From: Amoebophrya sp. A120
Lineage: Eukaryota > Protista > Dinoflagellata
Reading direction: 5' to 3'
NCBI GenBank assembly: GCA_905178155.1
Contig: CAJINV010000004.1
Location: forward strand, 8,956,411 to 9,020,410
DNA: 64,000 nucleotides
The notes under the pieces were generated by a model. It made no database searches, was not told the origin of the DNA, and saw nothing but the letters and a program-made list of their open reading frames with translations. Position 1 is the stretch's first letter; each line of letters starts with the position of its first letter. Position numbers and translations under genes: made by a program. Shown here one piece after another: positions 1,057 to 63,157 of the stretch.

Positions 1057-3384
1057 ATGGCCACCACAAACGTACAAGGCCCCCCCAAAGGTGCCCCCGC
1101 TGGTGCCCCCAGTGAACAATCTACGACCACCTCTGTCGAGCTCTTCGTGAGGGTTTGTGAAAAAAAAGAGGTCCAAGACTGGTACTACCCCGACGACGAA
1201 CGGTCCGCCGAGTGGAACGAGGAGCACGAAAAGATCGAGAAACAGATCAAAAAGCAGTTCGAAAGGCTCGGGTGCGAGATCACACAGTACAAACGGGAGT
1301 TGAATCACGCCGGGAATGAGTTCGCGACCGTGTCCTTCGAAAAAGAGGAAGACCAGGAATTTTTCCTCATGGCCTGCAAGCGCGAGCATTTTCGGAGCAA
1401 ACTCTCGCCCAACCCGTATCCTGTGCAAAATAAGTATCGTACTCATATAAATGCAAGTCTTGCATTACAAATCTTGTTCTCAAGGCAAATCCGCATTACA
1501 AATTTCATTTCTCATGCTGAGAAAATTTGTAATGCATTTATACGAGTACGATAACGATACTCATACTTTTGCAATGCATAACCCGGACTACACGTCGATC
1601 TGCGTTTTCGGAAAACACCACCACATCACCGAGGCGGTGCGGACCTTGCGGGTGGCGAAGGAGAAAGCGATGTCTGCGGTTTGGTTTCTCCAGGAAGAAA
1701 CGACCCTTCATAACCAACCGTCCGACGCTGTCATTGTGGAGGAGGAAAGGGGGGACGCGGAATACCGGCAGCGGGTCTTGCGCGCGGCCATAGATCACGC
1801 GAGGAAAAAGGTGGACGAGGCTGTTGAGAACAACGGGAAGGACTTTATTCCGCAACCGGTGGCGGACCACCTCGCAAAGGAGATTAAGGTTGCGCAAGCG
1901 ACTTACCAACAGAATCGGTTGTTGATTATCGATCTGGAAAAAGTAGTAGCTCCGGCAGAGGTGGAGGAAAAAGCCGAGGGAGGAGCGGCTCCAGGTACTG
2001 TATTTGCATTATGCTTTTTACTCATCAAGCCATTTTTATTTTTTGTCATGCTGAACCTGAAGATAAAAAAATAATTCTAGTGCTCCACCTTTCGATGTAT
2101 AGAAGTACGCGACGCACCGTGAGGACTAGTCGTCGACATTGGAAATAACTGAACTTGACAGGTGCCACCGAAGAATCAGATGAGGTTGGGCCGGGACGAG
2201 CAACAGCCGCGGCAGTCGAGTCTCCACAGCAGCTTGCACCGGGAAAGAGCGCGGATCTACTTAGCACTCCTGACGAGCAGCCAGCTCTGGTTGGCCCGAC
2301 CCAGGACGAGGCGCACAGCCGTGCAAATGATCCGGGAGACTGGGGAAGAAGTTGCTTTGCTGCTAGAGAAGAAGTACGGGACTGTATTTCATCCGAAGCT
2401 GTGGAGGTTTTTTCCAAGTCCAAAACGACCCGCCGAGAAGATGAAGAGAAACGGGAAGTAGAGCAGCAGCACCAGGAAGTTGTAAAGCGATCGACAAGAA
2501 AGCGACGACGGAGCGGCCTACTTTGTGGTCCGCCCGATGCACCAGAGGATGATCTTCACCCGGCGGCGAAACGGACTCAGCACGAGCGTATTTGTTCACG
2601 GGAGGATGGGACGAGGAGTGGAAGGCGAAGTGGTGCGCCACGATCAGGTACTACTCAGTAATTTCCTAGCTGTTTTAGTTAGACAGGCGAGTGAGACACC
2701 AGCAGTACTTAAGCATGAGATCATCATCTTTCATGCATGGTAAAAATTGCGGAAGCAACTGAGTTGAGTAGAATCTACTGCTTTCCTCTGACTGAAGTTG
2801 AAGACAATCAAAAGTTTACCACACCAGAAGATGAACCATTCGCAGAAGCAGTGAGGACGACAGACGGCGCGACCGAAAAACTAGAAACGGCGACAAGCAG
2901 CTCGGCGTCCCTCTCCCTTGAGTCCCAAATCGATGAGATCCTTGATCTGGAGGCGAGAACCGAGCTGAAAGAACAGCACCACTTGCTCGATGACTGCCGT
3001 GAAAGCCGGGGCTGCAGCAGGAAAGAACTCACTGCGAAAGCCGTCGGGCTGAAGCTCTTCCGAAAGTTTCATTCGCACGACGGCGGGAATAAAATCCAGA
3101 ACGTCCGGCTTTATCTGTGCAAGAAGGCCAGTCTCGCGTGGGCTCGCGCGAACAGGATATGCGAGCTGTTGGGGAGACATTATGGGGAAGATGTAGATGA
3201 TGAAGAAGAAGTAGACGAACGTAACAGGAGGAGCTGTAGTAAGGGTTATTTTGAAGAGCAAGAGAGAGAGTACAAAGAAGTGAAGCTGATGGCAGATTTG
3301 GTTCGAGAAGTTTACACACAGCTTCTGGACGTGGAGCGCACTTCTTGGAAAGAAGGGTCAACATCAGCAGCTACCAGATACTAG
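1057..3384 (+). CDS. Tandem-family protein: RRM-like, helical, low-complexity and SAP-like C-terminal modules
   Basis: ATG 1057; introner 1417-1580; GT-AG introns 1995-2161 and probably 2648-2827; frames join as KLSPNP|DYTSICVF and AAP|GATEE. Confidence 0.7.
1417..1580. mobile_element. Introner family B
   Basis: TIR TATCCTGTGCAAAA.AGTATCGTACTC; TSD ACCCG/ACCCG; frame restored. Confidence 0.9.
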
Positions 3385-4680: not shown

Positions 4681-7600
4681 ATGTCGGCGCCAGATCCGCC
4701 CTACGGCGCATCGGGTCCTCCCTTGTCCGCCCATCAGCTTCTAGAGCACACTAGTGTGGAAGAGGTGGCTATGCAATACAAATTTCCTGCACATGTACAA
4801 AATGCATCACAGATTTCATCAATTTGGAGTGTAAGAATGCTTGTCATGCTAATTTAAGATCGGGGCCAAGTTTTGTCATGCAGAGACCGCATTGGTTTTG
4901 GTACGTGCCTGTGCGGGAAATCTACTGTGGATAGTGGCAGCTAGGTTGGACGCAGCGATCGGGGAAATCGGGGACATCGTCCGCGAGCAAGCCGTATGGA
5001 TTGCAAATATGTCTGAGTCTGGAAAGAACTTGTGATGTAAGCCAGGCAATATTGGGCCGGCGCACTGTCATACATGGCCAAGCGTGACAAGTTTTTGAGC
5101 TGCTACGTGTACCGCGTATTCCGCATGGCAGACTGCGCTTTTGCATCACACACAAAGCGATCCTTTTGCACCTACACAGGACAGAGTTCCGCGTCATGTC
5201 AGACAAGCATGACAAATCTCGCAGTCTTCCAGACCCAGTAGACATATTTGCATTTTATAAGCCGACTCCTTTCTCGAGTCGTTTCCGTCTCCGTATGCAC
5301 TGCAAGAAAACTTGCGACAGAAGTTCTTGCTGCGCAGAGACAGACAGGCGCGCGGCGATGACATTTTGATTCTTTCCGAGGCCTGTTTAGTCGTCCAGTG
5401 ATCACGCGCCTCCGCCTGTAGAATACGCCTTCGCAGATGCCGCCTCATCCTGATTGCATCAACGCGATTAGATACTTGCAGACCAAACAAGAACGAAGCG
5501 AGCATTTTCATATAAGGGGTGTTTTTGTCATCTGTGTAATAATATTGCAACAAAAATCGCAGGAACAAGTTTTCGCAAAAATGCATACGGGAGACCAGGA
5601 CTACACGACCAACCTGCAACTGCGCGCGGGCGTCAGGTCTATCCGAAGCTTTTGGGAGGACGCGCTCGCGCTGGGTGGGAAAGCCGACGAGTTGCAGGAG
5701 TCGCTGGAAACCATCTGCGCCGCGTCCCGGAAGGGAGAAGCAGCGGCCGTAGTTCCCGAGGTGATTAGTAAATGGCTCAGCGAAACCGCGAGTCCAGTCG
5801 TGGACGACTTGAAGAAATATGAGGCGGAACGGCTCTACGTCTCCCTCATTTGTTTGCCGCACAAGGTCAAGGTGCGTAATCCTGTCGGTGCCCCCGTGGC
5901 GGTATTTGCATGACAGAAGTTGTTACAGCCGAGTCGCAGCAAACCTCGTAGAACCCAGCCGCCTCATAACTTTCATGCAGGATCTCCCTCAAGGTCAAGG
6001 TCAAGGGTGAGGCCCCGTGTCAATCCTGTAGTCTTCGTTGTTGTGGATGTTCTTCGACGTCAGTCTTCAAATGAGGGGGAATTGTCCAGCCGCATAAACG
6101 AAAATACAATAACAAAACTACTCGGCGCAAAAACGTCCCCAACTACGACCCACGCGCAAGATGAGAACTCTGCAAGGCAACTGCATATCTTTTGGGACCC
6201 GCGCATGACAAATTTCCCTTTGTTTTTGTAGCGTAGTGCGCGTTTGGCTTTGGTTGCAGGGATAGCCGCATTACAAAGCCATCCGCTTATCCTGTCATCC
6301 GCATTACAAATTATGCTAAAAAAACCCGACGGCTGAGATTGCCTCTTATGGGGATGCGCATGACTACAAATGCGTCTCCCGTAGATTCTAATCTGCATGG
6401 CAATGCTTGGGGGGGATTTTTTTCCTCAGGATAAGAGCCGAGCCGTTCCTCCTGAGAAGGCTGCACGAGTATGAGCGCGCTGCCGCGAGGCGCTTTGGGG
6501 CCCGGCAATGTCGTCACGGGCCGAAAATTATGCGGGGCAAGTGCAAAAACAAACGCGAGTGCGTCAGGGTCAGTGAGTTTGAAAAAAGTTGCAGTCCGGA
6601 ATGAATAAAGCTGAGAAAGTTGCTTGCCTGCGACGGCTCGACTCAGTCCTTTCCGGGACTTTAAGGTAGCGCACGATAATAGAGACTTGCACTACAAAGA
6701 GTAGTAGTAGCTGAAAACGCAAGATAGTCAATCACATGAAAATAACTCGGCAGGTGTTAATATACGCATGACCAGCACTTACAGCTTAAGAAATTGCGCC
6801 GGTTTTTCCGTTGGCGAACGCCATACCTTCGGCGCCTTTCTGAACCCAGAGACACACAAAGAAAGATTTGCACTCCATAGGAACTCCGGGGGATTGGCAG
6901 TGCTGGCACTGCGGCACATATCGCGACAGGTCGGAGACGCACTGCGGAACCATCGAGCAGCTGCGGCAGGGCCGTGGGTGCAAGAATATCTGACAGCAAA
7001 GTCCGCCCATAAACAGTAGAAAAACGCTGCTTGCGTGGCGCAAACGCTTGCCGTGTTGTTTGCATGGCGCAGGCAAGTAGCTTTTTGATGGCCGGCAAAG
7101 CCAGACCATGAGTGAGGCGAAAGCCTGCCGCGCAAAGTTGAGACGTCTGTGACGAAGCAAAGGAACCAGACACCAAAAGAGTTCCTGGCGTTCTTGAATA
7201 GAAGATAAAAGCCCCAGTATTGTCGCTTACAGGGCTGCGCCACAATCACAAGCGTTTCTAGTTCTCTATGGGCGCGCTTTCCTGCAGGATAGAGAAGCCG
7301 AGATACTTTGAGCCGCCGTTCTATGGATGTGTCAGGTTTGAAATCAACAAAGTTGAAATGATTTCTCATGCATAAAATGCGACACAAAGACTGACTCTAT
7401 TGCAGAGGACGCAAAGGAAGCAGATTATAGTGCTGGCAAGGGTCATAAATTGGGTTGCTGGCTAGCATCACATGGGGGAGCCCTCTTGCCCTAAACAGCA
7501 TGACAGACTTGCCTCAGAGGCCAGGAAAATTTGCCATGCGCCGATTGCAAAGTGGGGGTCCAAGTGGTATAGATTTTATGCATGACAAACTATTTCAACT

Positions 7601-10600
7601 TTGACGATTTCAAACCTGACACCCCCATACGTTCGTCCTGAATTCCCGGACCGCCATGATCGCACTATCATATGCAAAAGCGTGCGCGCGGCCCCATATA
7701 TATTCAAGCTATGGGATCAGCATAGACAAGTCGAGGAGCGCTTTCGCGGTTCGAGGATGACAAGTGTGGGCGCGCACTGTAATCATGCCCAGCTAGGCCA
7801 ACTGCGTCACAAAGAACTTTCTCTATTGATCAGCGCATGACCACCCAGAAATTCATCCGTACTGCGACCCTGACCCAATTTGCCTGCCTTGCGGTGCCGC
7901 ATGAGAAGAAAGTGATTGGGGAACACTGCAAATACGTGCGACCACAAGAAAAATCTGGGGCCGCGGATTACCACGCTTATTTTGCACTGGATACGCGCAC
8001 CACTTTGCCGAGGACGTTCCGGCGCCGGATCTGGAGTATTACGCCCCACCACCACGACCGCCGCTCTCCGCGTCCACACCTACCACAGCAACCACTGTGA
8101 GCACGGCGACGAACGGGCTACCGCCACCAGTATCCTGGGGGAAAGCGTTTCCGCCCAAGAGTCAAAGCGGGAACTACGCTAGACAAGCCGCCGCGTTTTG
8201 GCTGTTGCGTGTGACAAGTTTGGAGCCGTTGCGAAATCGTCTTTGGGTAGCGTAGCAGCATGACAAATTTAGAGGAGCCCTATCTTGATTAGAGCATGGC
8301 AAACTCCTACACAGCATGATTGGTGAATGCTCCGCATGGGGATGCCCTTGAGAAAAATTTGGTGCTTGCAAATTTGCAGAGCGAGGCCGTGGTGGAGATG
8401 TTTTTCCTCAGGATAGCCAGGGTTCGTCCGCGGCCGGGAGCAGGACATGTTGGCCCTCGTTCCTCCTTCGCGCCAACTTCTAAACGCGGCCACAAATGAT
8501 CTATCGCACGAAGAAACTGCTTCACCGTAAAATTGTGACGCATAGAAAAATGGAACGCAGAAACAGGAGTATTCATTTCTATATATGTCTCTTGCTATAG
8601 AGTGAGGCAAGACATTGGATACCTAGCCTTGCTGCTTATTTCCCTTCCTAGGATAGTACGCGCATGTCAAGTTTTCTTTACGTGTAACGAACTAGCGATG
8701 CAGAATTTGTAAAATCACTCGAGTAAACGCGAAGCAGCTTTTTCTCAGGATATACTCCATCTTCGCAGAAACTTCTTCCCCGCGGGGGCAGTACCAGCCT
8801 GCACGTGGGCCTTGCGTCAACTAGCGCGGCACCGAAAGCCTCCGCGGCTTGTACTGCCACACCTCGACGTGCTACCACGCCAGCGGTTGCGGTTGCAAAG
8901 GTCTTGCGGTGGCCCGAGTATAATCCTGGTGCGATTATGGAAGGCTCTAGCACTGCTGCAAAAAGCGAGGGGCGAAAAGGTATACGTTGATAAGTATGTC
9001 TTTCTCAGTGCTGAGCAAGCTACGTATGTCGATGAGGACACCGATCATAACAGCGTGGTTTGATGTGTGTAAGTAGAAATTAATATTTCTTCAGTTAATT
9101 TTTCATGTAAGTCCAATGAATGTACTACATGCAGGCTCCGAAACGTGTTTCACCAGTGCGGGGGCTGCTGCCAGAGGACAAGACAAAGACTTCTTCAACT
9201 CGTTTCACGGAACCTATGGCGTTCTCAAATGTTACATTGTTCTCAATTGTTACATAAATTTGTAATGCAAGAACGGCGAAAGTGAAAGGGACAAGATTGC
9301 GCCTTTTGCATTACAGATTTGGCACAGATTTACATGCTGTTTAGCCCTTCGGATATTTGTCATGCGAAGCAGCTTAATCGTGGCGATCTTGGTGGTAAAT
9401 TTGCATGACAAATCATGTAACAGGTGGTAAATTTGCATGACAAATCGTAGCAGCTTGGCCACATTTGTCATGCAGTTTTTCGTTTTGGTCATACTCTCTG
9501 GTTTTTTCCTCTCGTGGCAATTTGTACCTGGTGTCCCTGTTTGTCATGCAAATCCTACCATCTACGCTGTTTCTGGCCTCTTGCATGTTGGTCCTTGGAC
9601 GTTGGTGCCACGATCGCAACTCCTTTTCCAGGACCTTAGTTTCCCGCCTGCTACAACCTCGTGCTTCCACTTTTTTGGATGGTGTTTTACTGGGGGTAGA
9701 ACTGTGTCATAGTTCCTGCTTCAAACCCTTTTACTTTTTAATTTGGTTCCCTCGGTGCTGAGACAGGGAGTTTGCACAGAGTTATTTCTACCTAGATAAC
9801 AACCAACTCACGTCGCAGCCGTCCCAGGAGTTTCGGTTGTTGTCTCTCGGTAGAAATCACGCTGTTCAAAAAATTTCTGTTTTGGAGTTTACCGGGTACG
9901 CGGTTAAGAGTTTGTCGACGTAATTTACAAAGGGACGCCCTGCCCTTAGTTTCCCAACATGACAAATCATGTAACAGCTGAGAATGTAACAGTTGAGAAC
10001 GCCATAGAACCCTGGAGGCGGGCGGGGAGCAGAGACACCGGATTTTTGGCTTGGCGCGGCACATAGAGACGCCCGTTTTCGTGAGTTGCGACAGCGAACA
10101 CAGTATGTTATACGGGTTCAACAATAATTTTTGTGCGGAGGACGAGCAGGACCTTAACATCAGCAAAAACACCAGTACAACTACCAGCCTCCTGCCCGAG
10201 CGCGAGACCGAGGTGAAAAGGATGCAACACTTCTCCGCAATACAGAGGGCGGAAGACGCCGAGACGAACTGCCAGCCGAAAATAACCCGCAATCAGGACC
10301 ATCAAAACGCGAAGCTGCAGAACAAGTACCTGAGTCATTTTGTCACGAAGGAGACGTGTGAGTTTTTCCACGCCATTCCCTTTGAGCAGGCGAAAGAAAG
10401 GCTCCGTTCCATTTTGACCGAGGTCAAAACGACTATCGCGACTGCGGAACAGCTTGCGAAAGCGGCCACACAATCGCGGCTGGATCTTGCGCAGGCGGGC
10501 CCGGACATCAAAATTGCGGCGCTACAAACGTCAAAGGCGGTGATGAAAAAACAGTTGGACGGCATGCAGTGGCTGGCGCCGAAGCTGGGTGTAGTCCTAA

Positions 10601-11325
10601 AAGCGGCGGGCAAAGCGCTGGACTTTCTCACCTTCATTGTCGACGCGGAAACAGGCACTGGGAGTAGTACAACAAGCACAGGAGGAGGAGTTGTTGCAGC
10701 TGCACCCACGAAAAATTTGCTATCGCAGCAGAGCTGCAAGAACCATCAGCAATTGCAGGTGCACACGACGTCGATCAAGGTCGCGAGTAGAGCTTGGCTC
10801 AGGGGAACCGCGCGGCCGCAACTGCAGGAGCTGGCAGCGGCGTGGGAGATGAAAGTGAAAGACCAGGTCGAAGGTATCCTGAGTAAAAACGTCCCCAGAC
10901 CAGAGTTGTAATGCAGATTTGCAAAGATAGGAAGACTTGTAATGCGCATCCCCATGAGAGCCATTGATTTCCAATCGTGTTTTGGAATTTGTGATGCTGT
11001 GAACAGGATGCGCAGATGAATCTGTGACGCAACTGCACTTGCTAACCTGCACTACACTGCGGAGTGCAACTTGTCATGCGTGACTCACAAAACTCCTAGG
11101 TTTGTGCTGCGAAATCCCCATCCTGACTCTGGTGTGGGGACGTTTTTACTCAGGATAGAAGGAGAAGAATCTGCGCTGCGAGAGCTGCTCCGAGACGAGC
11201 AGGAGCTGGTGGACCGGCCCGCCCAGGGGAATAAATCAGCGTGGTCGTTATGGGATTTGGGAAAACTTCAAGTTGCGATTGTGTATATCAAGCACGGACG
11301 AGAACGAGCAGGAGCACGACTTTGA
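4681..11325 (+). CDS. Tandem-family protein with RanBP2-type zinc finger (model unresolved at about 5820-6435; could be two genes)
   Basis: Continuous frame 4681-5817 and 6439-11325 after removing introners and GT-AG intron 8980-9134; GDWQCWHCGTYRDRSETHC...GCKKPR at about 6889-6986 plus 7297. Confidence 0.55.
4770..4933. mobile_element. Introner family K
   Basis: TATGCAATACAAATTTCCTGCAC...GTGCGGGAAATCTACTGTGGATA; TSD GTGGC. Confidence 0.85.
4995..5259. mobile_element. Introner family A
   Basis: TIR TAT..TGCAAATATGTCTG.GTCTGGAA; TSD AGCCG. Confidence 0.9.
5294..5587. mobile_element. Degenerate introner
   Basis: TATGCA...GAAAACTTG / CAAGTTTTC...TGCATA; TSD diverged, but element + 5 nt restores frame. 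Confidence 0.6.
6529..6879. mobile_element. Degenerate introner (A-like)
   Basis: TATG...GTGCAAA / TTTGCACTCCATA; removal + 5 nt gives GPKI|PGDWQC. Confidence 0.5.
6987..7291. mobile_element. Introner family M
   Basis: TATCTGACAGCAAAGTCCGCCCATA / TATGGGCGCGCTTTCCTGCAGGATA; TSD AAGAA/GAGAA. Confidence 0.85.
7322..7629. mobile_element. Introner family H
   Basis: TIR TATGG..GTGTCAGGTTTGAAATC..CAAAGTTGAAAT; TSD CGTTC. Confidence 0.92.
7666..7993. mobile_element. Introner family L
   Basis: TATC..TGCAAAAGCGTG..CGCGGCCCCA imperfect TIR; TSD CGCAC/CGCGC. Confidence 0.8.
8131..8415. mobile_element. Introner (M-like)
   Basis: TATCCTG.GG.AAA / TTTTTCCTCAGGATA; TSD ACCAG/GCCAG. Confidence 0.8.
8502..8752. 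mobile_element. Introner family I (degenerate)
   Basis: TATCGCACGAAGAAACTGCTTC / GAAGCAGCTTTTTCTCAGGATA; TSD TGATC/TACTC; frame restored. Confidence 0.75.
9215..10006. mobile_element. Introner family D carrying an internal insertion of about 550 bp
   Basis: TIR TATGGCGTTCTCAA.TGTTACATT; TSD GAACC; 792 bp versus about 235-250 bp for other D copies. Confidence 0.9.
10875..11157. mobile_element. Introner family C
   Basis: TIR TATCCTGAGTAAAAACGTCCCCA.ACCAGAGT; TSD GAAGG. Confidence 0.95.
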
Positions 11326-11424
11326 CTAAAGAGACTTGCGTTATAATTTGTTCTAATTCGTATGTTTATGTTTTGATTTTTTGGTACGATCATGCTGTGA
11401 AACTGTGACGCTGTTCCAACGTTA

Positions 11425-15825: not shown

Positions 15826-16037
15826 AGAAGATCGAGGAGTTTTTTTAAACTGAAAAAGCCGAATGTCGTTAGTTTCTACAGCTGTCTGCGACGCCAGCGA
15901 CAGAATAAAAGAACAAGTCAAGTTCGACAAAGTATAGTTGCAAAATAATAATAAACGCACTTTCAGGCTGAAAGCAGATTTCTGCAGTGGCATGATTCAT
16001 TTCGCAAAGGAGTCTTTTATTTAAGTACCAGTCTATA

Positions 16038-38400: not shown

Positions 38401-39031
38401 TTTTGTCAGCAAAATAGGGGACTTGTCATGCGGATTCGGCATTGCGGAAGGTTCTCGAAACCTGTGATGCTAGAGCTTCCATGCCAGACCTTCTGTGTCA
38501 TGCAAAAACAGCATGAATCTTCCTTTCCAGACCCAGACATTTTTACATTTGATATTCGACTATTGCGAACCTGTACCTGTTTGCCATGCGCAATTGCTAG
38601 CCTTCTGCATACCCAAACAGGCCAAGAAAATGCACCCACGCACCTTCTGCAAGACAGATCTGATTTGTGTACGCAAATCCAGCATCAGAAACTTCGTTTC
38701 GATATGGGGAGGGGGGACTTTTCCTCTCAATATGCGCGCGTACGCGCTGCAGAAATGGAGTAAAACCTTGAAGACAACTGATCGGCCATCTCTACTCACG
38801 CTCGACGAGTTGCGTCGGCGAATCATGGAGATTGGGAAAACCTTGATTGGGCGTCTAAGTGACCTCGAGGCACTTGAGGAGGCGGGGGCAGAAGATGCGC
38901 GGCTGGAAACTGCCCGCGCGGAGTTGAAGGCGGTGTGGGAAAAATTTGATACCATTAAAAAGGTGACGGATTCATACATCGAGGCAGAAAATCTGCCCAG
39001 AGAGGAGAACGAGGAGGGTTCTCAAAACTGA
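35416..39031 (+). CDS. Tandem-family protein: N-domain, RD/RS-rich, RRM-like, SAP-like
   Basis: Introners at 35873, 37844, 38157; introns 36634-36755 and about 37560 (GC donor?)-37729; RAVFINWP...DHDCIREEL...AVVAVFAD; VKKLKA|KCAELGV. Confidence 0.7.
35873..36100. mobile_element. Introner family E
   Basis: Family E TIR; TSD GAGAG. Confidence 0.93.
37844..38095. mobile_element. Introner family F
   Basis: TIR TAT..C.TGCTCAG.TGTTACAATCT; TSD AGCCA. Confidence 0.93.
38157..38732. mobile_element. Introner family G (hosts a nested element)
   Basis: TIR TAT...GAAAA.TCCCCC.TCCCCATAT; TSD TGCGC. Confidence 0.92.
38300..38554. mobile_element. Introner family A nested inside the family G element
   Basis: Intact family A TIRs with their own TSD TTCGA. 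Confidence 0.93.
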
Positions 39032-52187: not shown

Positions 52188-55100
52188 ATGGTACTATCGT
52201 CGCGTGCGCAGCTCTCTGCGCTTGCTGTTGTACTACCTGTCGCTGCGGCGGCGCAGATATTCGGAAGAGTCGCACCAACGAACGCTGTGGCGAAGGTCGT
52301 GACAACCACCCTACGTGCAGCCGGTTATTTATCCGGTAGTGCAGCAGCACACAGAACAAGTACTAGCAGCAGAGCACAGGCTGCTGGTGCTGCTCTAGAT
52401 GAACACCAGCTGTCGGGTACAATTCTTGCGCAAGAACTTCGACAACACGATGCTGATCCGGAAGAGAAACTTCTTCCCACGACGAGTTTGGAATTTGTGG
52501 TCCAGGATTTTTGTAGCGACGAGCAAGAAAATGAAAATGAAAACAAGAACGAGCTTTCTTTCCATCAGAACCAAAACGCCGATGTCGTGGGACGAGCGTC
52601 TGTTTCGCCACTACACCCGCCCTCGTTCGAAGGCCAGGAGGATGAACATGTCGCGGCCAACTATCATCTTTTCTCCGGAGCAGATGAACCTGCGCACAAG
52701 ATGATGAACCTTGTCCCCTGGCCGGCGAATTTCGAGGCAAACAGCGCCCAGCTCCCCGTGCAGTGCGAGCAGCCGGACTGGTTGTTACGGAAGGACCAAC
52801 TGGTGCTGCCCGTGAACGAGGAGAGGAGCTTCTTGTCGAGCGTGAATGAAGCAACAAGCACACCAACATCAAAAGCCAGCGCAACAACTAAAGTTTCGGC
52901 CACTCTGGTGATGACGCTGTTTCTCGGGCCGGACGGGCCGAACGACTGGAAAAGAACTCCGCCAAGTGGGCAAACTACGCATGTAGCGGCAAATAAAAAT
53001 CTTTACGCCGCTGCGGACTGGCTGCGGGCGCTCTTTGCCGCGAACGTGCAGGTCCTTCGTCGGTTCTATCCTGTGCAAAAGTATCGCACTCGTATCAATG
53101 CATTATACAAATTTCCTCAGCATGAGAAATTTGTAATGCGGATTTGCCTTGAGAAGAAGATTTGTAATGCAAGACATTGACATGCATTTATACGAATACG
53201 ATACTGTTGCACAGGATAGGTTCGGCCACGGGCTGATCTTGCGCACGGACTTCACTCCGGGGGACTTCGACGGGAAAACGCATTTAAAGTCCTGGGAGGT
53301 CGACAGCGAGGACTGCAAGAAGAAAAATTTATCCCCAGCGGACTGTGCCAAGCAGTACCAGCGACTCAATTCCTTCTTCGAGAGGCCGCTCATGGTAGCA
53401 GACTACCTAAACTTACGAAAAGCTGGAAGTGGATCTGCTGGAGATTCGGATTCCAGTTCCACCGCCCCTGAAGATCAACAGTTCCGCTTCACCCACGTGT
53501 TCACGCTGGATGCGGACGCCGCGTTCGTCAGCATGAGTATCGACTCGGTCCGGTTGGCGGCGTGGAATTTGGCGCGGGCGGGAAAAGACGTGTTTGCCGC
53601 CAATGAAGACTGGCAGGAAGAGAAGAACAAAGCGGGGTGGGACCAGGACCAGCTCTGCCGCGGGGTGAACAACGGGTTGTTGTTCGCGGCGAACACGGCC
53701 TTTTCCCGAACGTTCTTCCGAGATCTATGGGATCATGATTCTCAAATGTTACATTCTCAACTGTTACGTGAATTTGTAATGCAAGAATGGCAAAAGTCAA
53801 AGAATGAAGGGAGGTTGCTCCTGTAGCATGACAAATACCGCACAGATTTAGGGGCTGTTTAGCCTTCGTAAAATTTGTCATGCGACGTAGCGTCCCTGTG
53901 TGGATGCTGGTGCTCATTTTGCATAACAAAAAATCATGTAACAGTTGAGAGTGTAACGTTTGAGAGTCCCATAATACATCTTCGCGGCGCACCAGCGCGG
54001 CCCGCGCGCGCAGGCCTGGGAGATCGAGCCAACGATCAGCCTCGTCTGCGCCTCGAACGACCAAGAGTGCGTGCAGAACGCGATTCCCCGGCTGCGACAG
54101 CACTTTCTCACGACGCGTGGCCAGTTTTGGAACCGGGGCCGGTTCGCGAACGACGAAAGCGCGCCGCTTGTGAACGCGACAGCGACCGCTGGTGGAGCAG
54201 GGGAAACAACGCACATCGTGCACTACATGAACGCCGACGGGAACATGAAGATTGCGGAAGAGGATTTCTGCGACCCCGGGTTTTTAGTAAAGCCGATCCA
54301 GGAGGAAACGAAAGTCGCTTTGGGAGTGTGCAGCAGCAGGAAGACCACGAGTCAAGGAGGAGAGGAAAGTGCAGAGGAAGTTGTACAACAACTAGATTGG
54401 CAGCCGCCAGCACAGTCGTGCGTCGGCCAAGGAACTAGTAAGCCACTTGGTTCCGGCAGTTCTGTGGGGGAGAGCATGAGTGGTCCTCACAGTCACGAAA
54501 CGTCGAAGCAGCAACGTCGCCTCCGCGTCGAGGAAATCCGAGTGGACGAGGAAGCTGACACAATTCGATATGACTTGCTCAAACGTTACAATCTCAAACG
54601 TTACATAAAGAATCTGGAATTTGTTGCATGATGACCATGACAGACTCGCACAGCGTTCCAACTTTTGCAATACAAATTTCGCGAGATTGTCTTGGGGTTT
54701 AGGGGTCCGGAACTTGTCATGTGCAATCCTATGAGACTTGGCTAGATCATGCAATCTTGCATCACAGATTTCCATATTCTATTCGTAACGTTTGAGATTG
54801 TAACACCTGAGCGGGTTATATTCGAGCGGGTGGTCCTCCGGATTTTTACCTCCAAACAAGCCCTGCTGAAGAGGAGACGACAGCTGTGGAGCTTGTTGAC
54901 ACGAGTGAAAGAAGTTTTTCCCCGACGACGGAACAAGGGGAAGCGGTGCCTGCTGCAAGCGGTACAACTGGTAGTGCAGCTGTCATCGCTGCAGCTGTTG
55001 GGCATGATGAAGATGAAATGCGTGCTGGGACATTGTCCGTGTTCGTCACGTCCTCTTCGTCTTCACACGACGAGCGCCAGCCTTTGTCCACCACCCTGGA

Positions 55101-58100
55101 CGATGACTTCCTCACCGCAACCCCCCCTTTTTGCAACGGTTGCTGCATCGGTCCGGCCTCGGAAGCCCCGTATCAAAAGTAAAAATGTCTGGGTCTGGAA
55201 ACTTGTGATGCTGGGTGGCGTCTCATGATGAGGCTACAAATGCTGGCTCAGCATGACAGGTTTCTGCGCTCCTAGGTGTTGCCTACTCTGCATGACAAAC
55301 GGCGCTTCTGCATCACAGAAAAGCGGAGCTCTTGGGTAACGTGCATGACAGATTTAAGAGTCATGCCAGACAAGCATGACAAACATGAATTCTTCCAGAC
55401 CCAGACATTTTTGCACTTGATACCCCGGCGAACGTAACCAACATCGGAGATCTCTCCTACCACGCGCGTTGCCTCGATGTGCACAAGTGCGCGGCGGCGG
55501 AGGTTCCTGGCGGAGCTGGTGCTCTTGGTGGTACGACGAATCCAGATGAGCAGCATGATCAGCGCAGGAGGACCAAGTACGCCTTCGTCCTTACCCACAA
55601 GGGGGTTCTGCCCCAGCCGGAGAGGAATACCACGGAATATCAAATGCAAAAGCATCGTACTCGTAAGTATAAATGCATTACAAATTTCCTCAGCATGAGA
55701 AACAAAATCTGTCATGCGGATTTACCTTAATAAACGAATTTGTAATGCGTGACTGCAATTACTACGAGTGCGATACTTTTGCACAGGACACGGAATGGAT
55801 TGACCTCATGTTCCCAAACCTTCGCAGCATGGAGCTGGCCCGGCAGGGAATACTGAGACAAGGAAAATCAGCGACGAAAGATATCGAAATCGACATTCTC
55901 CTCCTCGTTGCGCTGAACCGCGGCATGACGATCGGGGTTGACGCAAAGTGGTGGGAGAAAACTGTATCTTACCTGCAAACCGAACTGCGCCGCATCGCAC
56001 CAACTACGGTCGTGAAGCGCGTGCCGTGGACGGTGTATGCGTTGCAAATATGTCTGGGCGTGGAAGGATGCAACTTGTGATGCGCATTTCACAACACATA
56101 AAAATCTGTCATGCATAAGAAGCAAAAGCTGCCCACTTTTTGTCACCAAAATTGGGCATTTGTCATGCGGATCCGGCATTGCGGAAGCTCCTCGAAACCT
56201 GTGATGCTAGAGCTTCCATGCCAGACCTTCTGTGTCATGCAAAAGCAGCATGACCCTTCCATACCCAGACATATTTTCATTCAATACGGTGCCGGAGGAT
56301 GCGAAGTTTGACCGGAAGGAAAGCTGGTGCGGCGAGGTCGATTTTATCCGGCTCAATATGAACTGCAAAAGTATCGTACTCGTATGAATGCATTACAAAT
56401 TTCCTCCGCATGAGAAATAAAATTTGTAATGCGGATTTACGATAAGAAAAAAATTTGTAATGCAAGACTTGCATTTATACGAGTACGATACTTTTGCAGT
56501 GGATACTCAACGCGTTCAGCGAGACGGACTACGACGCCGTCGTCTACTATGGGAGTGTCAGGATCGAAATTGACAAAGTTGAAAAAATAACTTGTAATGC
56601 ATAAAATGCATGACGCGACTTACGTGTGTTGCAGCAGAGCAGGCAAGTGAGGCCGATCGTAAGCCCGTTTGGGGTTAGAGCTCGGGCCGCTAAAGTAGCA
56701 TGAGAAAATCTCTCTTTTTTGCATAAACAGCATGACAAACTGGATTTAGGCACCACCAAAATTTGTCATGCGCCACTTGAAAACGGGGTTTCAACTGGCA
56801 TCCAATTTATGCATGGCAAATCATTTCAACTTTGTCGATTTCGATCCTGACAGTTCCATATCTACTACGACCGCGATGTGGAGCTGCAGGACACGGGCGG
56901 AGAAAACCTGCTGGCGCTGTTCGAGTGTGTGGCGAAGCAGGACGTGTTTTTGACGGCCACGGGTGGGCTGAACGAGCCAATAAACGTCGGCTTTTTCGCG
57001 ATGAAGCCGAACCGAAAACTGCTAGACGTCGCCCTGGAGTTTTCCAAACTTGCCGACTACAGCGACGACACCGGGTGGGCGGGCAGTGGCTGGAGTCCGG
57101 CGCGCATGTTTTTGGTGAAGGGGAATGAAGAGGAAAGCCGTGGTGGAATCGGTGAAGGCGAGCGCGGAGAAGCTTCTGGAGGTGCTAGTCTTTACCTACC
57201 TGCTTCGTCTTCGACGGGGGCAATAATATCTTCTTCTTCGGGCATAAGAAGTACAGATACTGATTATACAGCAGGAGACGCCGACCGCACTGGTAGTACC
57301 ACATCAACTCAGCAAGAAGACAACCTTCATCTGCTGCGCGAAGGAGCCCCCGGCACCGTGGAAACAAGCGAAAATGACGGGAGCAGTATCATGGGCGGAG
57401 GGAAAGATACAATGAATACCACTTCGCCTTCGCGCGTTAGGAACACGGATTCGAATACTGTGATGTTGTCCGCGGAAGGCGGTAGCAGTAGTACTGATGC
57501 TCATGCTACAGGAACAAGAGCCTCTCGTCCCGGCACCTTCCTGTTCGAGGAGGACGAGCAAGATTTTCTGCGTCAACAGCAGGCGACGACCTCGATGGGC
57601 ACTAGAACCACGACACGGCACGGCTTTGATTCCTTATCAGGCAAAAGCGAAGACCAAGACCACCACCTCGAGCACACGACCAGCAGGTCCTCGTTGTATA
57701 AGCGCGTTCTCCTCGACCCAAGTCTAGTCACCGCGATCCGTCAAGACCGAGACAAATACGAAGCATTTCTGAAAAAGAAGTACTTCGTCGGGGGCGAGTG
57801 CGGACAGGGCTATTTTCTCACGCTCCTCTACCACCTGAGCAATCCCGTCGTGAAAACCGCCTATGAAAAAGCGGGTTTCCCCATCGAAAATATAAAACCC
57901 TTCTCGGTCGATCGCTGCCAGTGGAACTACCAAACCAACAACGGGCACGTCTGCGAGAAAATCCAGTCCAGTTGCGACAAAGTGATCGCGCACCACAAGC
58001 CAGGAAAGGAATTCTACGCCCCAGGCCAGGACGTTTCGAAGGCGGGCGACCAATACGGGCAATGCCTCAAACGCGGCTACAAGCGGTTGGCGGCGGGCAG

Positions 58101-61100
58101 AGCAGCGGCGGGGAGTTTCCTTTCATCTACGTCTCGCAGAAGTAGTGCTTTTTTGGAAGATGACAGCGTATGCATTGCAAATATGTCTCGGTCTGGAAAG
58201 TTGCAACTTGTAATGCTAATTCTGGATCGTGAAAAAATCTGTGTTGCATGAATGCCGAAAGTTGTCCGCTTTTGACCAAGTCGAGAGGAAGTGTCTCATG
58301 CAGGATAGGCATGACAGGGATCTCACAGAATCTGTCATGCTAGGTCCTGCATTCCAGACGACACGAATCATGGCAAATCTGCATCACAAGTTTCGGAATC
58401 TTCCAGACCCAGACATATTTGCATTTGATACAGCGGGATGTTGAACAAAATCGCGCTGAACGTGTTTTACTACGTGGAGAACCCGGACGACAAAAACTCG
58501 CTATGACCTGCTCAAACGTTACAACCTCAAACGTTACAATAGAATTTGGGTTTTGTATTGCATGATGAGCATGACAGACTCGGACAGCATTTCCCTTTCT
58601 GCAATACAAATTTCGCCAGATTGTAGTGCGGATTGGCACTCCAGAACTTGTCATGCGCAATCCTAGGAGAGTTGGCTAGGTCAGTGTTTGCTGTCCCCCG
58701 GGCTGAGGTCACTGTTGTGGGTTTCTGGCGACTTGTGTGGTGCAGGAAATTTTGCCACCACCACTGTCTGGGCCCCGTCTGTTCTGAGGCTGTGCAGGTC
58801 GGGTTACCTGGTCGGGTTGGTTGTCGGGTCGATTCTCTCTATGCCCCTGCCCCTTGATGCCTGCCACTGGGCGGATTGGGAGCGTTTTCACGGCGTCAGC
58901 CCGTTTCTAAGAGCTGAAACTATATGACGCGTGCTGTCTGCTCTTAGACATTATGGGGAGGATTCCTCTTCTCTGTTCCCCCCAGGGCATTGCCTCATCG
59001 TTGGCGCTATCGTGTGACAGCTCTTAGTTGCCGTGGTGCTTTCGGTGGGATGGACGTCCGGTGTTGCTTCGACACTCTTGTGTTGTTGCATTTGTGAATG
59101 CGAGGGCAGTGGTGGACTGAGGTTGCTGGAGTCCTCCGTAAGGACGGCTCCAAGTTAATTTCTGACTACTCCGCTTCCTTGTGCCTCTGCTTTAGTACTA
59201 TTTTTAGTGCTTTAGCTAATAGGCGTCCCCCTCGAATCTCACCTCCAGGACTTCGGGGACCCCACTTTTCCAAGGTTCTTGGTTGTGGATGGTTCCTCGA
59301 GGTCTTTGTGTCGTCTGGGTATTCTTTGGTGCACTTCTTGCAACACAAATTCCAGATTCTATTGCAACGTTTGAGATTGTAACACCTGAGCAGGTTATCC
59401 TCGCGGAAGCACTTTCTGAAGTCCTTTCCCTTGAACCTCGAGACCTGGCTGCTGCACCTCCGGTCGAGCAGAGTGGAGCCGCGGGTGTATTGAGAGGAAA
59501 AATCCCCCCTCCCCATATTGAAAAGGTATGGCTCCGGAAATTTGTGTTGCTGATTTGAGGTCACAAATCACGTCTGTCTTGCAAGAAGACAAGGGCAGAA
59601 GCTTCCGCCATATTATGGAAGCGGTTTGTCATGCCGTTGGGCCTAAAGGGAGGCCGTTTGCCATGCTGAGCAACTAGACCCATACGCCCCCAGCTAGCCT
59701 GCGGATCTGGCCGCCATGCCTTTCTGCAACACAAATCTGATTTGTGTATCCAAATCCAGCATCAGAAATTTCGTTTTGATATGGGGAGGGGGGATTTTTC
59801 CTTTTGATAGGGTGATTCAAGTAACCGATGCGACAGTGCGGACGTGGATCCCCGATGTACTATCCAAGAAAAAAAGTGTGCAAGTGTAACTCTGTAGGAA
59901 GAGCAGCATCACAGATTTGTTTTGCATTACAGAAAAACCTGTCATGCCTGGCTAGTACTGGTGAAAATACGCACGCAGCATGGCTATCAGATGCACTTGC
60001 AGCATGACAAGTGTAACGGTCTTGCGTTTTTTGCATCACAAATATACTCTCACACAGCTTTTTTCTTGCATATGTACCCGAGCAGTTTTACCGATTGCCA
60101 TATAGCCAAGCAAAGTCGGATTTTGTCCGCTACGCGCTCCTGTATTACCATGGGGGGATCTACCTGGACGGGGACTTCATCGTGCAACGGGATTTGCACG
60201 AGAACATCTTGGAAGCCCTGTCCGGAGCAACGACATTTGGTGGCGTCGCAGGAATAAACAGCGGAGGTGGAAATCAAATTCAAAATACCAGAAAACAGTC
60301 GTTCTTTCCCATCGAGCTGTTGTCCTACAACTCCGCCGGGCAGAACTGCAAGGGGATGAGGCCGCCGAATTTCAAGCCGACCTTTTCTTTATGAACTGCA
60401 AAAGTATCGTACTCGTATAAATACATGACAAATTCCCTCAGCATGAAAAAAAAATTTGTAATGCGGGTTTACCTTGAGAAAAAAACTTGTGATGCACGAT
60501 TGCAATACGAGTACAGCACGATACTTTTGCACAGGATATTCTTCCAATTTTCTTGGTGCGACGAAGGGGAGTTTGTACATGATATCAAATGGAAAAATGT
60601 CTGGGTCTGGAAGAGGAGAAGTTTTTCATGCACATTTTCCATGATCCATGATGTCTCTGTTGTATGCAATAGCATCACAGATTTTTTGAGCGCCTATCGA
60701 TGCGCGTCCTGCATGACAAATGCCTTCTCCGCGTAGCCACATTTGACTCCTCTTGCTGCTCATGCAATACAGATTTTTTGAGCATCCAAATGCAGCATCA
60801 CAAGTTTGGCTCTTCCAGACCCAGACATATTTGCAATCCATACATGAAACGGGTCTACGACCTGCAGAAGCAAACGCTGACAACCCCCTGCGAAACCCCG
60901 GAAAAAAACGTGTGCTGCTCCGGCCTAGATCGGAAGAAGCAGTGCCACATCGGTTGGGGCGGGCTGGGCGAGGGAATCTCCACCGGCGGGGAGATCGCGT
61001 TAGCTGCGGCTGATCAGGAAGTTTTGGAACAGTCGGGGGTGGGAAAGGAGATTCGGGAAAACCCGCTGGGGCTCATCTATAGAAAAGACAAGACGAGTGC

Positions 61101-63157
61101 TGATCCTGACGGGAGTAGTAGTGCCACGACCGGCCTGGTGAAGATATCGAGTTCCACAACTTCCACTTCAAGTACACTTTCGCGAAATAGTCCGGTCACC
61201 AACGGTATACAGCAATTTCTAACGACGACTACCGGGATGCCGGGTAGACGTAGCAGCTCTAGCGGTGCAATAAATTACCGAGAGGTTTATGATAGTGACC
61301 AAACAGCAATATCGGAGAATGAAGATTCCGAAATGCAGTTCAAAATCCAGGGCATTGTCGCCTGTTTCCAAAACGAGACAGAATTCGCCGCGTTGAACCC
61401 GCAGTTGCTCGGCGGTAACATGTATCAAGTGCAAAAATTTCTGGGTCTGGAAACTTGTAATACTGCGTTGGGAATAGTGAATGCCCTGCAATGCACAGCC
61501 AAGCATGAGAAGTATCTGCGCTTCTTTGTGTTGCGTCTTTCGCATGACAAACTGCGGTTTTGCATGAAGGGCAAGAAAAGGGTCTCTTCTTGGACACGCA
61601 TCACAAACTTTTTGGTCATGCCAGAAAAGCATGACAAATCTCGCAATCTTCCAGACCCAGACACTTTTTCATTTGATAACATGACGGATGAAAACAGTGA
61701 GGAACGAATCGCCTTTTTCCGAGACGTGCACGCGACGGTTAAGTCCGAGCAAGAGGTGCGGAACGCGCTAGGCCGGACCGCGTACCACATGTTCGCCTCC
61801 AACGGCCTGCCGGAGTGGCTATTGTGAGGAAAAATCCCCCCTCCCCATACCAAAAAGGGGCACTACTGAAAATTTGTGATGCTGATTTGTGACCGCAAAT
61901 CGTCCCTGTATTGCAAGAGGGCAAAGCCAGAGAATCGGCCGCGTTGCCCAAGCACTTTGTAATGTTGTATCGCCTACAGATGATATGCCTGCCTTGCTAG
62001 GTGCCTACAGCAAAACGCCCCTACTCAGGGGCTGCATCTGCCTGCAGTCCTCGACTGCTAGACAGATTGGATTTGTGTACACAAATCCCGCATCACAGAT
62101 TTCGGCTTTGATATGGGGAGGGGGGATTTTTCACTTTGATAGTGGCACGAGAAAAGTTGCGAGGCGTTCGCTACGGACCATTCCACGGTGTTGGGAAAGA
62201 TCTACAGCTCGGCACTGATGCTGCAACAAGAAGACCACGGCGAGGAAACAACATCAAGTCGAAATAATGCCACTGCCAGCACGACGACGACTTTGTCCAA
62301 AATCTGCACTAGAGACGTGATGTCTGAAGCCGTGGTTGCAAAGTCGGTTACGCTGCACCCGGAAATGTCTTTCCCATTGGTGCAGAAGATGCCGGACGAG
62401 GAGGCGGAAAACAAGCAGGGGTCCTCGGAAGTAGGAGCAGGTCATACTACTGCTCCTGCACACAGTGTCGCCGCGTTTGTGGAAGTGGTCGTGGGTGGGC
62501 AAGAAGATGAGGAGGAAATGACAACAGATAGTCCTCTATCCCACGAAAAAACTGTTTCACTGTGAACTTGTGATGCATAGAATGGAAAACAGAACTATTT
62601 GTCTTGCTACGCCTGCAAGGCATTGGGTTCTTAAGCGTGTTTTCCCTTTGAAAGCGCGCACGGCAAATTTTCTGTGTCATGTGTAGCAAACTTGTGATGC
62701 GGATCTTGCAAGACCATCACAGTGAAACGGTTTTTTCGTGGGATATCCTCGTGCGCGACAGAACAGTGGAGAAATCGAGACTGATCTTCATACTGCATCT
62801 CTGCCTGCTCCTTCTGCTGCAGCTCCCCCTGCTGCAGCTTCTACCGATGAACCGCAACCGCAGATCAAGATCATGCACCAAAAGTCAATAACGATAACCC
62901 CGGCCGAGACAAGTTTTCTACAAGAGAAAGTGAAAAGCACCGCGCCGGAACTGGAAGTAGGACCGCGGCCAGCATCCGGACCAGACACGACGGAGAAACC
63001 GCGTCTCCTCCGACGGGCGCTGGACGTGGCGGAGGACGTGGATGGCTTATTTTTCGAGGGTAGTACGAAGATGACATCATCGTCCCGTCAATCCGAGAGA
63101 ATAAAGTCGATTGACCGTGCTGGCAGCGAGCAGGAGGGGACGGAACTGTTGGATTGA
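52188..63157 (+). CDS. Secreted/Golgi tri-domain glycosyltransferase (GT34-like, GT8-like, GT32-like), about 2074 aa after removing 17 introners
   Basis: Hydrophobic N-terminus; THVFTLDADA...GVNNGLLF (GT34-like); DFIRLNAFSETDYDAVVYYDRD...INVGFFAMKP...GQG (GT8-like); AKSDFVRYALLYYHGGIYLDGD...SNFLGATKG (GT32-like); 10970 - 4745 = 6225 nt, divisible by 3, and each junction is in frame. Confidence 0.85.
53067..53218. mobile_element. Introner family B
   Basis: TSD GGTTC; RRF|GHGLIL. Confidence 0.95.
53726..53973. mobile_element. Introner family D
   Basis: Family D TIR; TSD diverged (AGATC/ATACA); removal + 5 nt gives RDL|FAAHQ. Confidence 0.85.
54569..54820. mobile_element. Introner family F
   Basis: Family F TIR; TSD TTCGA. 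Confidence 0.93.
55171..55422. mobile_element. Introner family A
   Basis: TSD CCCCG; near-identical to 12735-12986. Confidence 0.95.
55638..55790. mobile_element. Introner family B (ACA end)
   Basis: Family B TIR; TSD CGGAA. Confidence 0.92.
56036..56286. mobile_element. Introner family A
   Basis: Family A TIR; TSD CGGTG. Confidence 0.93.
56357..56505. mobile_element. Introner family B
   Basis: Family B TIR; TSD CTCAA. Confidence 0.95.
56548..56860. mobile_element. Introner family H
   Basis: Family H TIR; TSD TCTAC; splits the DxD region VVY|YDRD. Confidence 0.93.
58169..58430. mobile_element. Introner family A
   Basis: Family A TIR; TSD CAGCG. Confidence 0.95.
58502..59399. mobile_element. 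Introner family F carrying an internal insertion of about 650 bp
   Basis: Family F TIR (ATC end); TSD CTCGC; 898 bp versus 252 bp for the other two F copies. Confidence 0.9.
59488..59809. mobile_element. Introner family G
   Basis: Family G TIR; TSD GGGTG. Confidence 0.93.
59861..60072. mobile_element. Introner family O
   Basis: TATCCAAGAAAAAA / TTTTTTCTTGCATA; TSD TGTAC. Confidence 0.88.
60390..60538. mobile_element. Introner family B
   Basis: Family B TIR; TSD TTCTT. Confidence 0.93.
60583..60842. mobile_element. Introner family A
   Basis: Family A TIR; TSD CATGA. Confidence 0.95.
61423..61678. mobile_element. Introner family A
   Basis: Family A TIR; TSD ACATG. Confidence 0.93.
61820..62141. 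mobile_element. Introner family G
   Basis: Family G TIR; TSD GTGGC. Confidence 0.93.
62537..62745. mobile_element. Introner family I
   Basis: TATCCCACGAAAAAAC.GTTTCACTGTGA TIR; TSD TCCTC. Confidence 0.95.

What the first reader, a model, noticed from the sequence alone, without database searches (positions are those of the whole stretch)
1417..62745. One motif, GCATNACA(A/G)A / T(T/C)TGTNATGC, repeats inside all otherwise unrelated families
Seen: elements typically carry several copies, often 20-35 bp apart (about 6 in 12735-12986). It occurs in families with dissimilar TIRs and interiors and is rare in exons and intergenic DNA. Inference: it is a shared binding site for one trans-acting factor (transposase subterminal site, or a splicing/excision or chromatin marker) that defines the system across families.
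Basis: partly seen in the sequence, partly recalled or inferred. Interest (0 to 1): 0.8.

Follow-up and report, generated by a model that had tools for sequence, protein, structure and literature searches.

The report
Helix-spaced motif shared by mobile introns
Nearly all of the small transposon-like introns in this stretch, likely from the plankton parasite Amoebophrya, carry several copies of one short DNA word that is kept under selection and spaced like turns of the DNA helix, which likely marks the docking site of the still unidentified protein that copies them around the genome.

Summary
Real. GCATNACARA occurs 104 times (1.2 expected): 96 in 48 TAT…ATA elements with 5-bp target duplications, 6 in decayed copies, 2 in the other 50 kb. 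The elements match the published Amoebophrya A120 introners; all 10 with a listed joint are removed with exactly 5 nt. In 460 kb of other loci, found without using the motif, it is ~38-fold denser in elements. Corrections: one element lacks it; families share an end grammar; spacing is 31-33 bp head-to-tail (10 of 15 families; 11 of 19 in the loci); outward copies sit 36, 46, 57, 67 bp from the tip (p=0.002). The core changes 0.12-0.14 as fast as spacers on internal tree branches, about 0.4 on tips. Strands are balanced, elements with one orientation only are spliced either way, and two copies stay in transcript contigs, so a strand-read splice signal is unlikely. Best reading: a subterminal DNA site for one shared transposition protein (0.6). 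A host role after insertion is not excluded; that test was inconclusive. No transposase found. Not seen in the papers searched, but this scan already noted the motif and its 31-33 bp spacing elsewhere in this genome.

The parts
1417..1580 (.). Family A introner; 3 exact / 4 matrix sites; removed with 5 nt in RNA? contigs
4770..4933 (.). Family K introner; 2 / 4 sites
4995..5259 (.). Family B introner; 1 / 5 sites
6130..6433 (.). Decayed family C copy (66% to nearest relative; left end approximate); 3 exact motifs
6987..7291 (.). TAT..ATA element with no motif site (exception); a frame stays open only when it is removed; no RNA joint listed
7322..7629 (.). Family H introner; 2 / 4 sites
8131..8415 (.). 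Diverged family C (C2) copy; 1 / 2 sites
8502..8752 (.). Diverged element C3; 0 / 1 site
9215..10006 (.). Family D introner with a ~0.55-kb insert flanked by a duplication that starts in a motif copy; 7 / 8 sites
10875..11157 (.). Family C introner; 1 / 5 sites, all on the minus strand
11669..11934 (.). Family B introner; internal sites all on the plus strand; removed with 5 nt
11983..12137 (.). Family A introner; 2 / 3 sites; removed with 5 nt
12421..12701 (.). Family C introner; internal sites all on the minus strand; removed with 5 nt
12735..12986 (.).
13339..13573 (.). Family D introner; 3 / 4 alternating sites 46-49 bp apart; removed with 5 nt
14200..14421 (.). Family E introner; 2 / 4 sites; removed with 5 nt
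14511..14735 (.). Family E introner; 1 / 5 sites; removed with 5 nt
18378..18529 (.). Family A introner, opposite orientation to 1417; 2 / 4 sites; removed with 5 nt
18588..18908 (.). Family I introner; 1 / 4 sites; removed with 5 nt
19144..19464 (.). Old copy with decayed ends, still skipped (TC..AG joint); one perfect motif at 19191
20115..20370 (.). Two decayed element remnants with exact motifs at 20154 and 20330, retained in RNA? contigs (not spliced)
28935..29225 (.). Family C introner; 2 / 6 sites
29284..29518 (.). Family D introner; 3 / 4 sites
35873..36100 (.). Family E introner; 2 / 3 sites
37844..38095 (.). Family F introner; 0 / 4 sites
38157..38732 (.). Family G introner holding a nested family B copy (38300-38554, own 5-bp duplication, 0 / 4 sites); 2 / 10 sites in all
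39897..40217 (.). Family B introner; 2 / 5 sites
40287..40442 (.). Family A introner; 3 / 4 sites
42285..42566 (.). Family B introner; 1 / 6 sites
43793..44068 (.). Family C introner, left end damaged; 2 / 5 sites
44484..44703 (.). Family B introner; 2 / 5 sites
50807..51045 (.). Family D introner; 3 / 4 sites
51093..51360 (.). Family B introner; 2 / 5 sites
53067..53218 (.). Family A introner; 2 / 3 sites
53726..53973 (.). Family D introner; 4 / 3 sites; skipped in an X4 contig
54569..54820 (.). Family F introner; 1 / 3 sites; skipped in an X4 contig
55171..55422 (.). Family B introner; 4 / 6 sites
55638..55790 (.). Family A introner; 3 / 4 sites
56036..56286 (.). Family B introner; 2 / 4 sites
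56357..56505 (.). Family A introner; 3 / 4 sites
56548..56860 (.). Family H introner; 2 / 5 sites
58169..58430 (.). Family B introner; 1 / 6 sites
58502..59399 (.). Family F introner with a ~0.64-kb insert; 1 / 5 sites
59488..59809 (.). Family G introner; 1 / 6 sites
59861..60072 (.). Family J introner; 3 / 6 sites
60390..60538 (.). Family A introner; 1 / 3 sites
60583..60842 (.). Family B introner; 2 / 5 sites
61423..61678 (.). Family B introner; 3 / 4 sites
61820..62141 (.). Family G introner; 2 / 2 sites
62537..62745 (.). Family K2 introner; 0 / 4 sites; skipped in an X4 contig

Best explanation
The motif is a conserved, helically spaced word inside nearly all of these transposon-like introns, and it is likely a double-stranded DNA binding site for one protein shared by all families, most likely the transposase or a partner in its complex, that would grip several copies on one face of the helix near each end before cut-and-paste. 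Shown: elements with TAT…ATA ends and 5-bp duplications; removal with exactly 5 nt in contigs from runs guessed to be RNA; motif density, spacing and conservation. Inferred: that a protein binds it, that this protein is the mobiliser, and that families differ freely elsewhere because only the end grammar and the phased sites must be kept for a lineage to go on copying. On this reading splicing would depend on the element ends, not on the motif.
For: Geometry of DNA: same-orientation copies 31-33 bp apart (about 3 turns) in 10 of 15 family representatives (null mean 1.7; largest over any 3-bp window 8 in 1,000 shuffles). Repeated in loci found with a family-B end pattern that lacks the motif: 11 of 19 families (null mean 2.0, largest 8 in 10,000). 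Outward-facing copies cluster 36-37, 44-47, 56-57 and 67-68 bp from the tip; 30 family-position units, R=0.49 at 10-10.25 bp, p=0.0018 for periods 10-11 and 0.011 for any period 7-16. Spacers between phased copies are near-random across families (0.35/0.31/0.26 against 0.29/0.26/0.26 shuffled), so spacing is kept while sequence is not. Selection is strongest where lineages propagate: motif/spacer change ratio 0.12 (0.07-0.19) on internal and 0.42 (0.36-0.49) on terminal branches, 251 copies, Fisher p=6e-11; 0.14 and 0.39 in 351 homology-called copies. No strand bias: 100 plus against 103 minus in a plus-strand gene cluster. 12421-12701 (minus sites only) and 11669-11934 (plus sites only) are both removed; exact copies at 20154 and 20330 are not. 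Precedent: subterminal repeats bound by transposases of hAT Hermes (PMC10368747, passages) and of the Lemi1/Emigrant MITE pair (PMC1636448, passages); hAT groups with 5-bp duplications exist (PMC12730594, passage).
Against: No transposase or binding protein was found: none among 127 frames of 230 aa or more in the loci. Farhat et al. report no transposase in A120 and argue against general transposase mobilisation. Tips still show about 2.5-fold protection, also in close pairs (21 pairs at 92% or more: ratio 0.37, 0.26-0.50; 12 pairs at 94% or more: 0.35), where a pure transposition role predicts a rise towards 1; only the 3 closest pairs show that (0.96, very wide interval). Copies with damaged tips have no extra motif decay (2.7% against 3.4%, 32 against 319 copies). 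Position C2 of the core changes at only 0.9% on tips, below the ~2.5% duplication clock. Inward-facing sites are not phased (p=0.85). The 46-49 bp opposite-strand spacing is not significant after look-elsewhere correction or in the loci (5 of 19, p=0.06). Two good-looking elements have no site (6987-7291; L048:768-1035). Family units are not fully independent.
Confidence: 0.6

Rival explanations
1. Dual or host role: a host DNA-binding protein (a chromatin or co-transcriptional factor) likely marks these elements through the motif in either orientation and helps their removal or silencing, so hosts keep the motif after insertion; mobility selects for it only because unmarked insertions in exons are lethal.
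For: Terminal-branch and close-pair ratios stay near 0.35-0.42. No extra decay in tip-damaged copies. Matrix sites outside recognisable elements are about 7-fold over a Markov background (98 against 10-18 in 329 kb); only about 10 of 77 testable ones sit in a good hidden end pair, and several of the 45 printed look like old remnants with the motif intact. U1 snRNA is reported missing in this lineage (PMC7789003).
Against: Much stronger constraint on internal branches. Tip-anchored helical phase is what an end-acting enzyme needs. The tip rate (3.2-3.3%) is at or above the clock from duplication mismatches (4.9% per site pair, about 2.5% per copy), so neutral decay after insertion also fits. 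Copies with mismatched duplications gain as much change in motif as in spacer (+0.76 against +0.71 points, both intervals spanning zero). Motif-bearing remnants at 20154 and 20330 are not spliced. The orphan count has no denominator.
Confidence: 0.25
2. A strand-read RNA splicing signal: the motif would act as a branch point (it contains U-N-A-C, recalled consensus) or pair with a small nuclear RNA.
For: The free position lies where the recalled branch consensus is free; the last plus-strand copy is often 36-50 nt from the 3' end.
Against: Strand balance 100:103. Elements with only minus sites or only plus sites are both removed; 64 of 355 loci elements carry one orientation only, 34 and 30. 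The four GT-AG introns 13631, 19538, 46112 and 47858 have no site. Ten-base phasing has no reason on single-stranded RNA. The A120 snRNA sequences were not readable as text, so pairing was not tested.
Confidence: 0.07
3. Shared ancestry without present function: all families descend from one repeat-rich ancestor and simply carry the word.
For: Common end grammar and duplication length; some cross-family alignments of 61-249 nt.
Against: Core 4.4% diverged against 16.3% in spacers and 21.7% at the N position within subfamilies; spacers near-random across families while spacing is kept.
Confidence: 0.05

Closest known systems
Introner elements (IEs) of Amoebophrya sp. A120 (Farhat et al. 2021, PMC7789003; read: abstract, sections 11, 16, 36, passages, supplement text searches; figures not visible)
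   Same: Non-canonical introns with inverted repeats that start TAT, seven looser bases and at least three A, with short direct repeats at the junction; many families; mean length about 240 nt.
   Different: The parts seen describe only ends and direct repeats, report no internal motif, and argue against transposase mobilisation. Here the repeat is a 5-bp duplication and the families share a phased internal site under selection.
Subterminal repeats of hAT transposons, Hermes BED-binding sites (PMC10368747, passages); hAT5 group with 5-bp duplications (PMC12730594, one passage)
   Same: Short word repeated in both orientations inside the ends, followed by A/T-rich bases; several copies bound by one multimer.
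   Different: Hermes sites are 4 bp and start within about 30 bp of the tip in one family. Here the site is about 12 bp, starts 36 bp or more in, fills whole 150-320 bp elements and is shared by families with different inverted repeats. No hAT protein was found here.
Emigrant MITE / Lemi1 subterminal motifs (PMC1636448, passages)
   Same: A non-autonomous element whose internal repeated motifs are bound cooperatively by a transposase in trans.
   Different: There the motif copies the 3' half of the inverted repeat; here it is mostly distinct from the family-specific inverted repeats, and the elements are spliced.

Membership tests
Amoebophrya A120 introner elements | Inverted repeat starting TAT + 7 looser nt + at least 3 A | tested here: met
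   Family-weighted end profile: TAT at 0.94-1.0, A at positions 11-15 at 0.64-0.92; families D, E, F and H fit the A-tract less well.
Amoebophrya A120 introner elements | Short direct repeat at the junction | tested here: met
   5-bp duplication perfect in 38 of 48, one mismatch in 7, two or more in 3.
Amoebophrya A120 introner elements | Removed from transcripts without needing GT-AG | tested here: met
   10 of 10 listed element joints skip element + 5 nt; 15 of 29 joints were shown; the runs' RNA status is the tool's guess, one study; the same contigs skip GT..AG introns.
Amoebophrya A120 introner elements | Source organism is Amoebophrya A120 | not tested
   Inferred from the match to the published description; no marker gene was searched.
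Non-autonomous TIR DNA transposon (MITE-like) | Terminal inverted repeats, fixed-length duplication, many dispersed copies, short non-coding body | tested here: met
   363 elements in the loci, mostly 100-350 bp; nested insertion with its own duplication at 38300.
Non-autonomous TIR DNA transposon (MITE-like) | A cognate autonomous element or transposase | tested here: inconclusive
   None among 127 long frames in 460 kb; no whole genome held. Earlier unreviewed notes propose hAT-like candidates elsewhere; not checked.
hAT subterminal repeat | Repeated short motif near the ends in both orientations | tested here: met
hAT subterminal repeat | 8-bp duplication (5 bp in hAT5) | tested here: inconclusive
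   5 bp: not the usual 8, fits hAT5 but also other integrase-type enzymes (recalled).
hAT subterminal repeat | Bound by the transposase BED domain and needed for transposition | not testable with these tools
   No protein in hand; needs binding and excision assays.
Spliceosomal branch-point signal | Sense-strand copy near the 3' end of every intron | tested here: not met
   12421-12701 is removed with minus-strand sites only; four GT-AG introns have no site.

The most novel reading that the evidence does not exclude
One protein reads the phased motif array both to mobilise every introner family and to license its removal from RNA in either orientation, for example by marking the DNA co-transcriptionally in a lineage reported to lack U1 snRNA: a transposon-encoded identity tag that stands in for splice-site sequence.
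Probability: 0.12. Interest if true: 0.88.

Novelty: new variant of a known kind. Interest (0 to 1): 0.47.

Why it matters
How the roughly 30,000 introners of Amoebophrya A120 move and how they are spliced without GT-AG is an open question in print. A shared 12-bp site with fixed helical spacing suggests that the many families are clients of one machine. It gives a ready bait for pull-downs and a simple mutational test. It would also give a sequence signature for finding decayed introners and the autonomous parent.

Tried and rejected
No whole genome is held for the window and the record behind L026 is not searchable, so no genome-wide count and no orthologous-site comparison were possible. 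Viral contigs: 5 hits to the family-B end pattern, 0-3 scattered matrix sites each and no element; taken as chance. Transposase search: 127 frames against Pfam gave host-type domains only; the one long element in the loci (L030:505-1608) is a family-H-like copy with a low-complexity insert. Age tests were inconclusive: duplication-mismatch and tip-damage contrasts have intervals spanning zero. Orphan sites are not clearly confined to non-coding DNA by a crude frame mask (0.24 against 0.40 per kb). CpG decay does not explain the contrast, which holds for A/T, G/C and CpG columns alike. snRNA pairing could not be checked because the alignments are images. Literature: searches and word searches in PMC7789003, PMC12130899, PMC9860276, PMC11282704 and bioRxiv 2020.10.14.339549 showed no internal motif; one search listed 15 of 2,806 papers, all unrelated; figures, bioRxiv supplements and subscription papers were not seen. 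One search was uninformative. Three window exon frames had no Pfam match.
Full report
Observation. GCATNACARA matches 104 times on both strands against 1.2 expected. A finder that looks only for TAT…ATA inverted ends with a 5-bp duplication placed 85 of 104 in 47 intervals. After dropping 3 doubtful calls and adding 4 clear elements it had missed, 96 lie in 48 elements (7.4/kb), 6 in four decayed remnants and 2 in the other 50 kb (0.04/kb). 43 of 48 elements have an exact copy and 47 of 48 a matrix site; 6987-7291 has none. The matrix was trained on these elements, so window matrix counts are not independent; the exact counts and the loci are.

What the elements are. They match the introner elements of Amoebophrya sp. 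A120 as described in PMC7789003 (inverted repeats starting TAT, seven looser bases, three or more A). The organism is inferred, not tested. In contigs of runs X3-X6 (RNA by the tool's guess, one study) 10 of 10 listed element joints skip the element plus exactly 5 nt, and the same contigs skip ordinary GT..AG introns on the plus strand (15 of 29 joints were shown). Further elements are skipped in 53-63 kb, and removing 17 elements from 52140-63160 leaves 2,090 codons without a stop.

Replication. A family-B end pattern without the motif found 175 stretches in 11 of 64 parts of the metagenome collection, all on JACKZZ01 contigs. They merged to 154 segments of 459,847 bp with no overlap with the window beyond repeats. 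Whether this is another isolate is unknown. They hold 363 elements of the same and some new families; of 408 pooled elements 405 have a site. Exact density is 7.25/kb in element-like DNA and 0.19/kb outside (849 against 65).

Are the families unrelated? Mostly in their interiors: most cross-family hits are 18-47 nt over motif copies or ends, with longer ones for C-C2, E-F, D-E and C3-K2, and J joins K2 in the pooled clustering. But the families share the TAT(C/G)-N6-A-tract end and the 5-bp duplication, so they are better seen as one system.

Geometry. Same-orientation copies lie 31-33 bp apart in 10 of 15 window families and 11 of 19 loci families, against null means of about 2. Spacers of such pairs are 0.62-0.74 identical within families and 0.26-0.35 across them, close to shuffled. 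Outward-facing copies sit 36-37, 44-47, 56-57 and 67-68 bp from the tip (R=0.49 at about 10.25 bp; p=0.0018, or 0.011 over all periods 7-16). The 67-bp class is partly 36+31, families are not fully independent, and inward copies show no phase (p=0.85). Opposite-strand pairs at 46-49 bp are striking in D, E and F but not significant across families.

Selection. In 19 subfamilies (276 copies) the core differs from consensus at 4.4% of sites, spacers at 16.3% and the middle N at 21.7%. On trees the motif/spacer ratio is 0.12 on internal and 0.42 on terminal branches (251 copies), and 0.14 and 0.39 in a set called by homology without asking for a duplication (351 copies; 37 of 388 left out for low identity or small groups). 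So the site matters most for lineages that keep copying. Whether it still matters after insertion is unresolved. Duplication mismatches (4.9% per site pair) imply 2.5-4.9% change per copy after insertion; with the tip rates this puts the motif's post-insertion rate at about 0.6-1.0 of neutral (my arithmetic). Close pairs give 0.35-0.37, tip-damaged copies show no extra decay, and the age contrasts span zero. Orphan sites outside recognisable elements are 7-fold over background and several look like old remnants, but without a count of old elements they do not decide.

Splicing. Sites are 100 plus and 103 minus in a plus-strand gene cluster. An element with minus sites only (12421) and one with plus sites only (11669) are both removed; exact copies at 20154 and 20330 stay in contigs; an old copy at 19144-19464 is removed with one perfect site left. 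Four of six GT-AG introns examined have no site; 1992-2158 has one at 14.4 and 2645-2824 a weak one. The motif is thus not sufficient for removal and not needed in a given orientation. That it is not needed at all rests on one element without RNA support (6987-7291).

Mechanism and comparison. The best fit is a subterminal DNA site for one shared transposition protein, as for Hermes BED sites (PMC10368747) and Emigrant/Lemi1 (PMC1636448), both read as passages. hAT groups with 5-bp duplications exist. It works like such a site; membership in hAT is untested, as no protein was found. A host or dual role is the main rival (0.25).

Novelty. The elements are published. The internal motif was not seen in the searches and passages listed under Tried and rejected; figures and some supplements were not visible. 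This scan has already noted the motif, the 31-33 bp spacing and the transposase-site reading on other pieces of the same genome (unreviewed notes). I had recorded the same reading before opening them. Verdict: real, a new variant of a known kind, interest 0.47.

Noticed in passing
window 9424-9975; L030:505-1608: Foreign inserts sit at a motif copy inside an element: in 9215-10006 with a ~20-bp duplication beginning in the motif; in L030 a low-complexity insert begins and ends at motif-like bases.
   Followed up: partly
window 13337-13578 and 14506-14737: Joints at copies with mismatched duplications are compatible with a cut 1 nt before and 4 nt after the element (10 of 10 joints compatible, only 13337 narrowly informative).
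   Followed up: partly
window 20083-20439: Two decayed element remnants appear to be exonised; one X4 contig has an extra T after 20226 that would shift the frame at a stop.
   Followed up: partly
window 16038-17217: A ~1.1-kb insert with a GC-rich first part, flanked by a ~40-bp duplication, with ten ACTAG words in 16870-17140; looks like a retroelement.
   Followed up: no
window 52140-63160: One gene of about 2,090 codons interrupted by 17 elements; hydrophobic N-terminus and a DxD-like stretch near 60.1 kb suggest a glycosyltransferase (by eye; two other exons had no Pfam hit).
   Followed up: partly
window 63610-64000: Open frame running off the window that by eye resembles a tyrosine-recombinase retroelement protein; no Pfam match.
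   Followed up: partly
window 1995-2161, 5874-5980 (approx.), 20440-20777 (approx.): Intron-like stretches without clear inverted ends that each hold one good motif copy; possibly old introners turned canonical (5 sites at score 13 or more outside elements against 1.6 expected).
   Followed up: partly
L048:768-1035: An element with a good inverted repeat and duplication but no motif site at all.
   Followed up: no
window 51274-51360: Run X9 reads match only this family-B interior and run on into other flanks, so a related element lies at another place in that sample.
   Followed up: no
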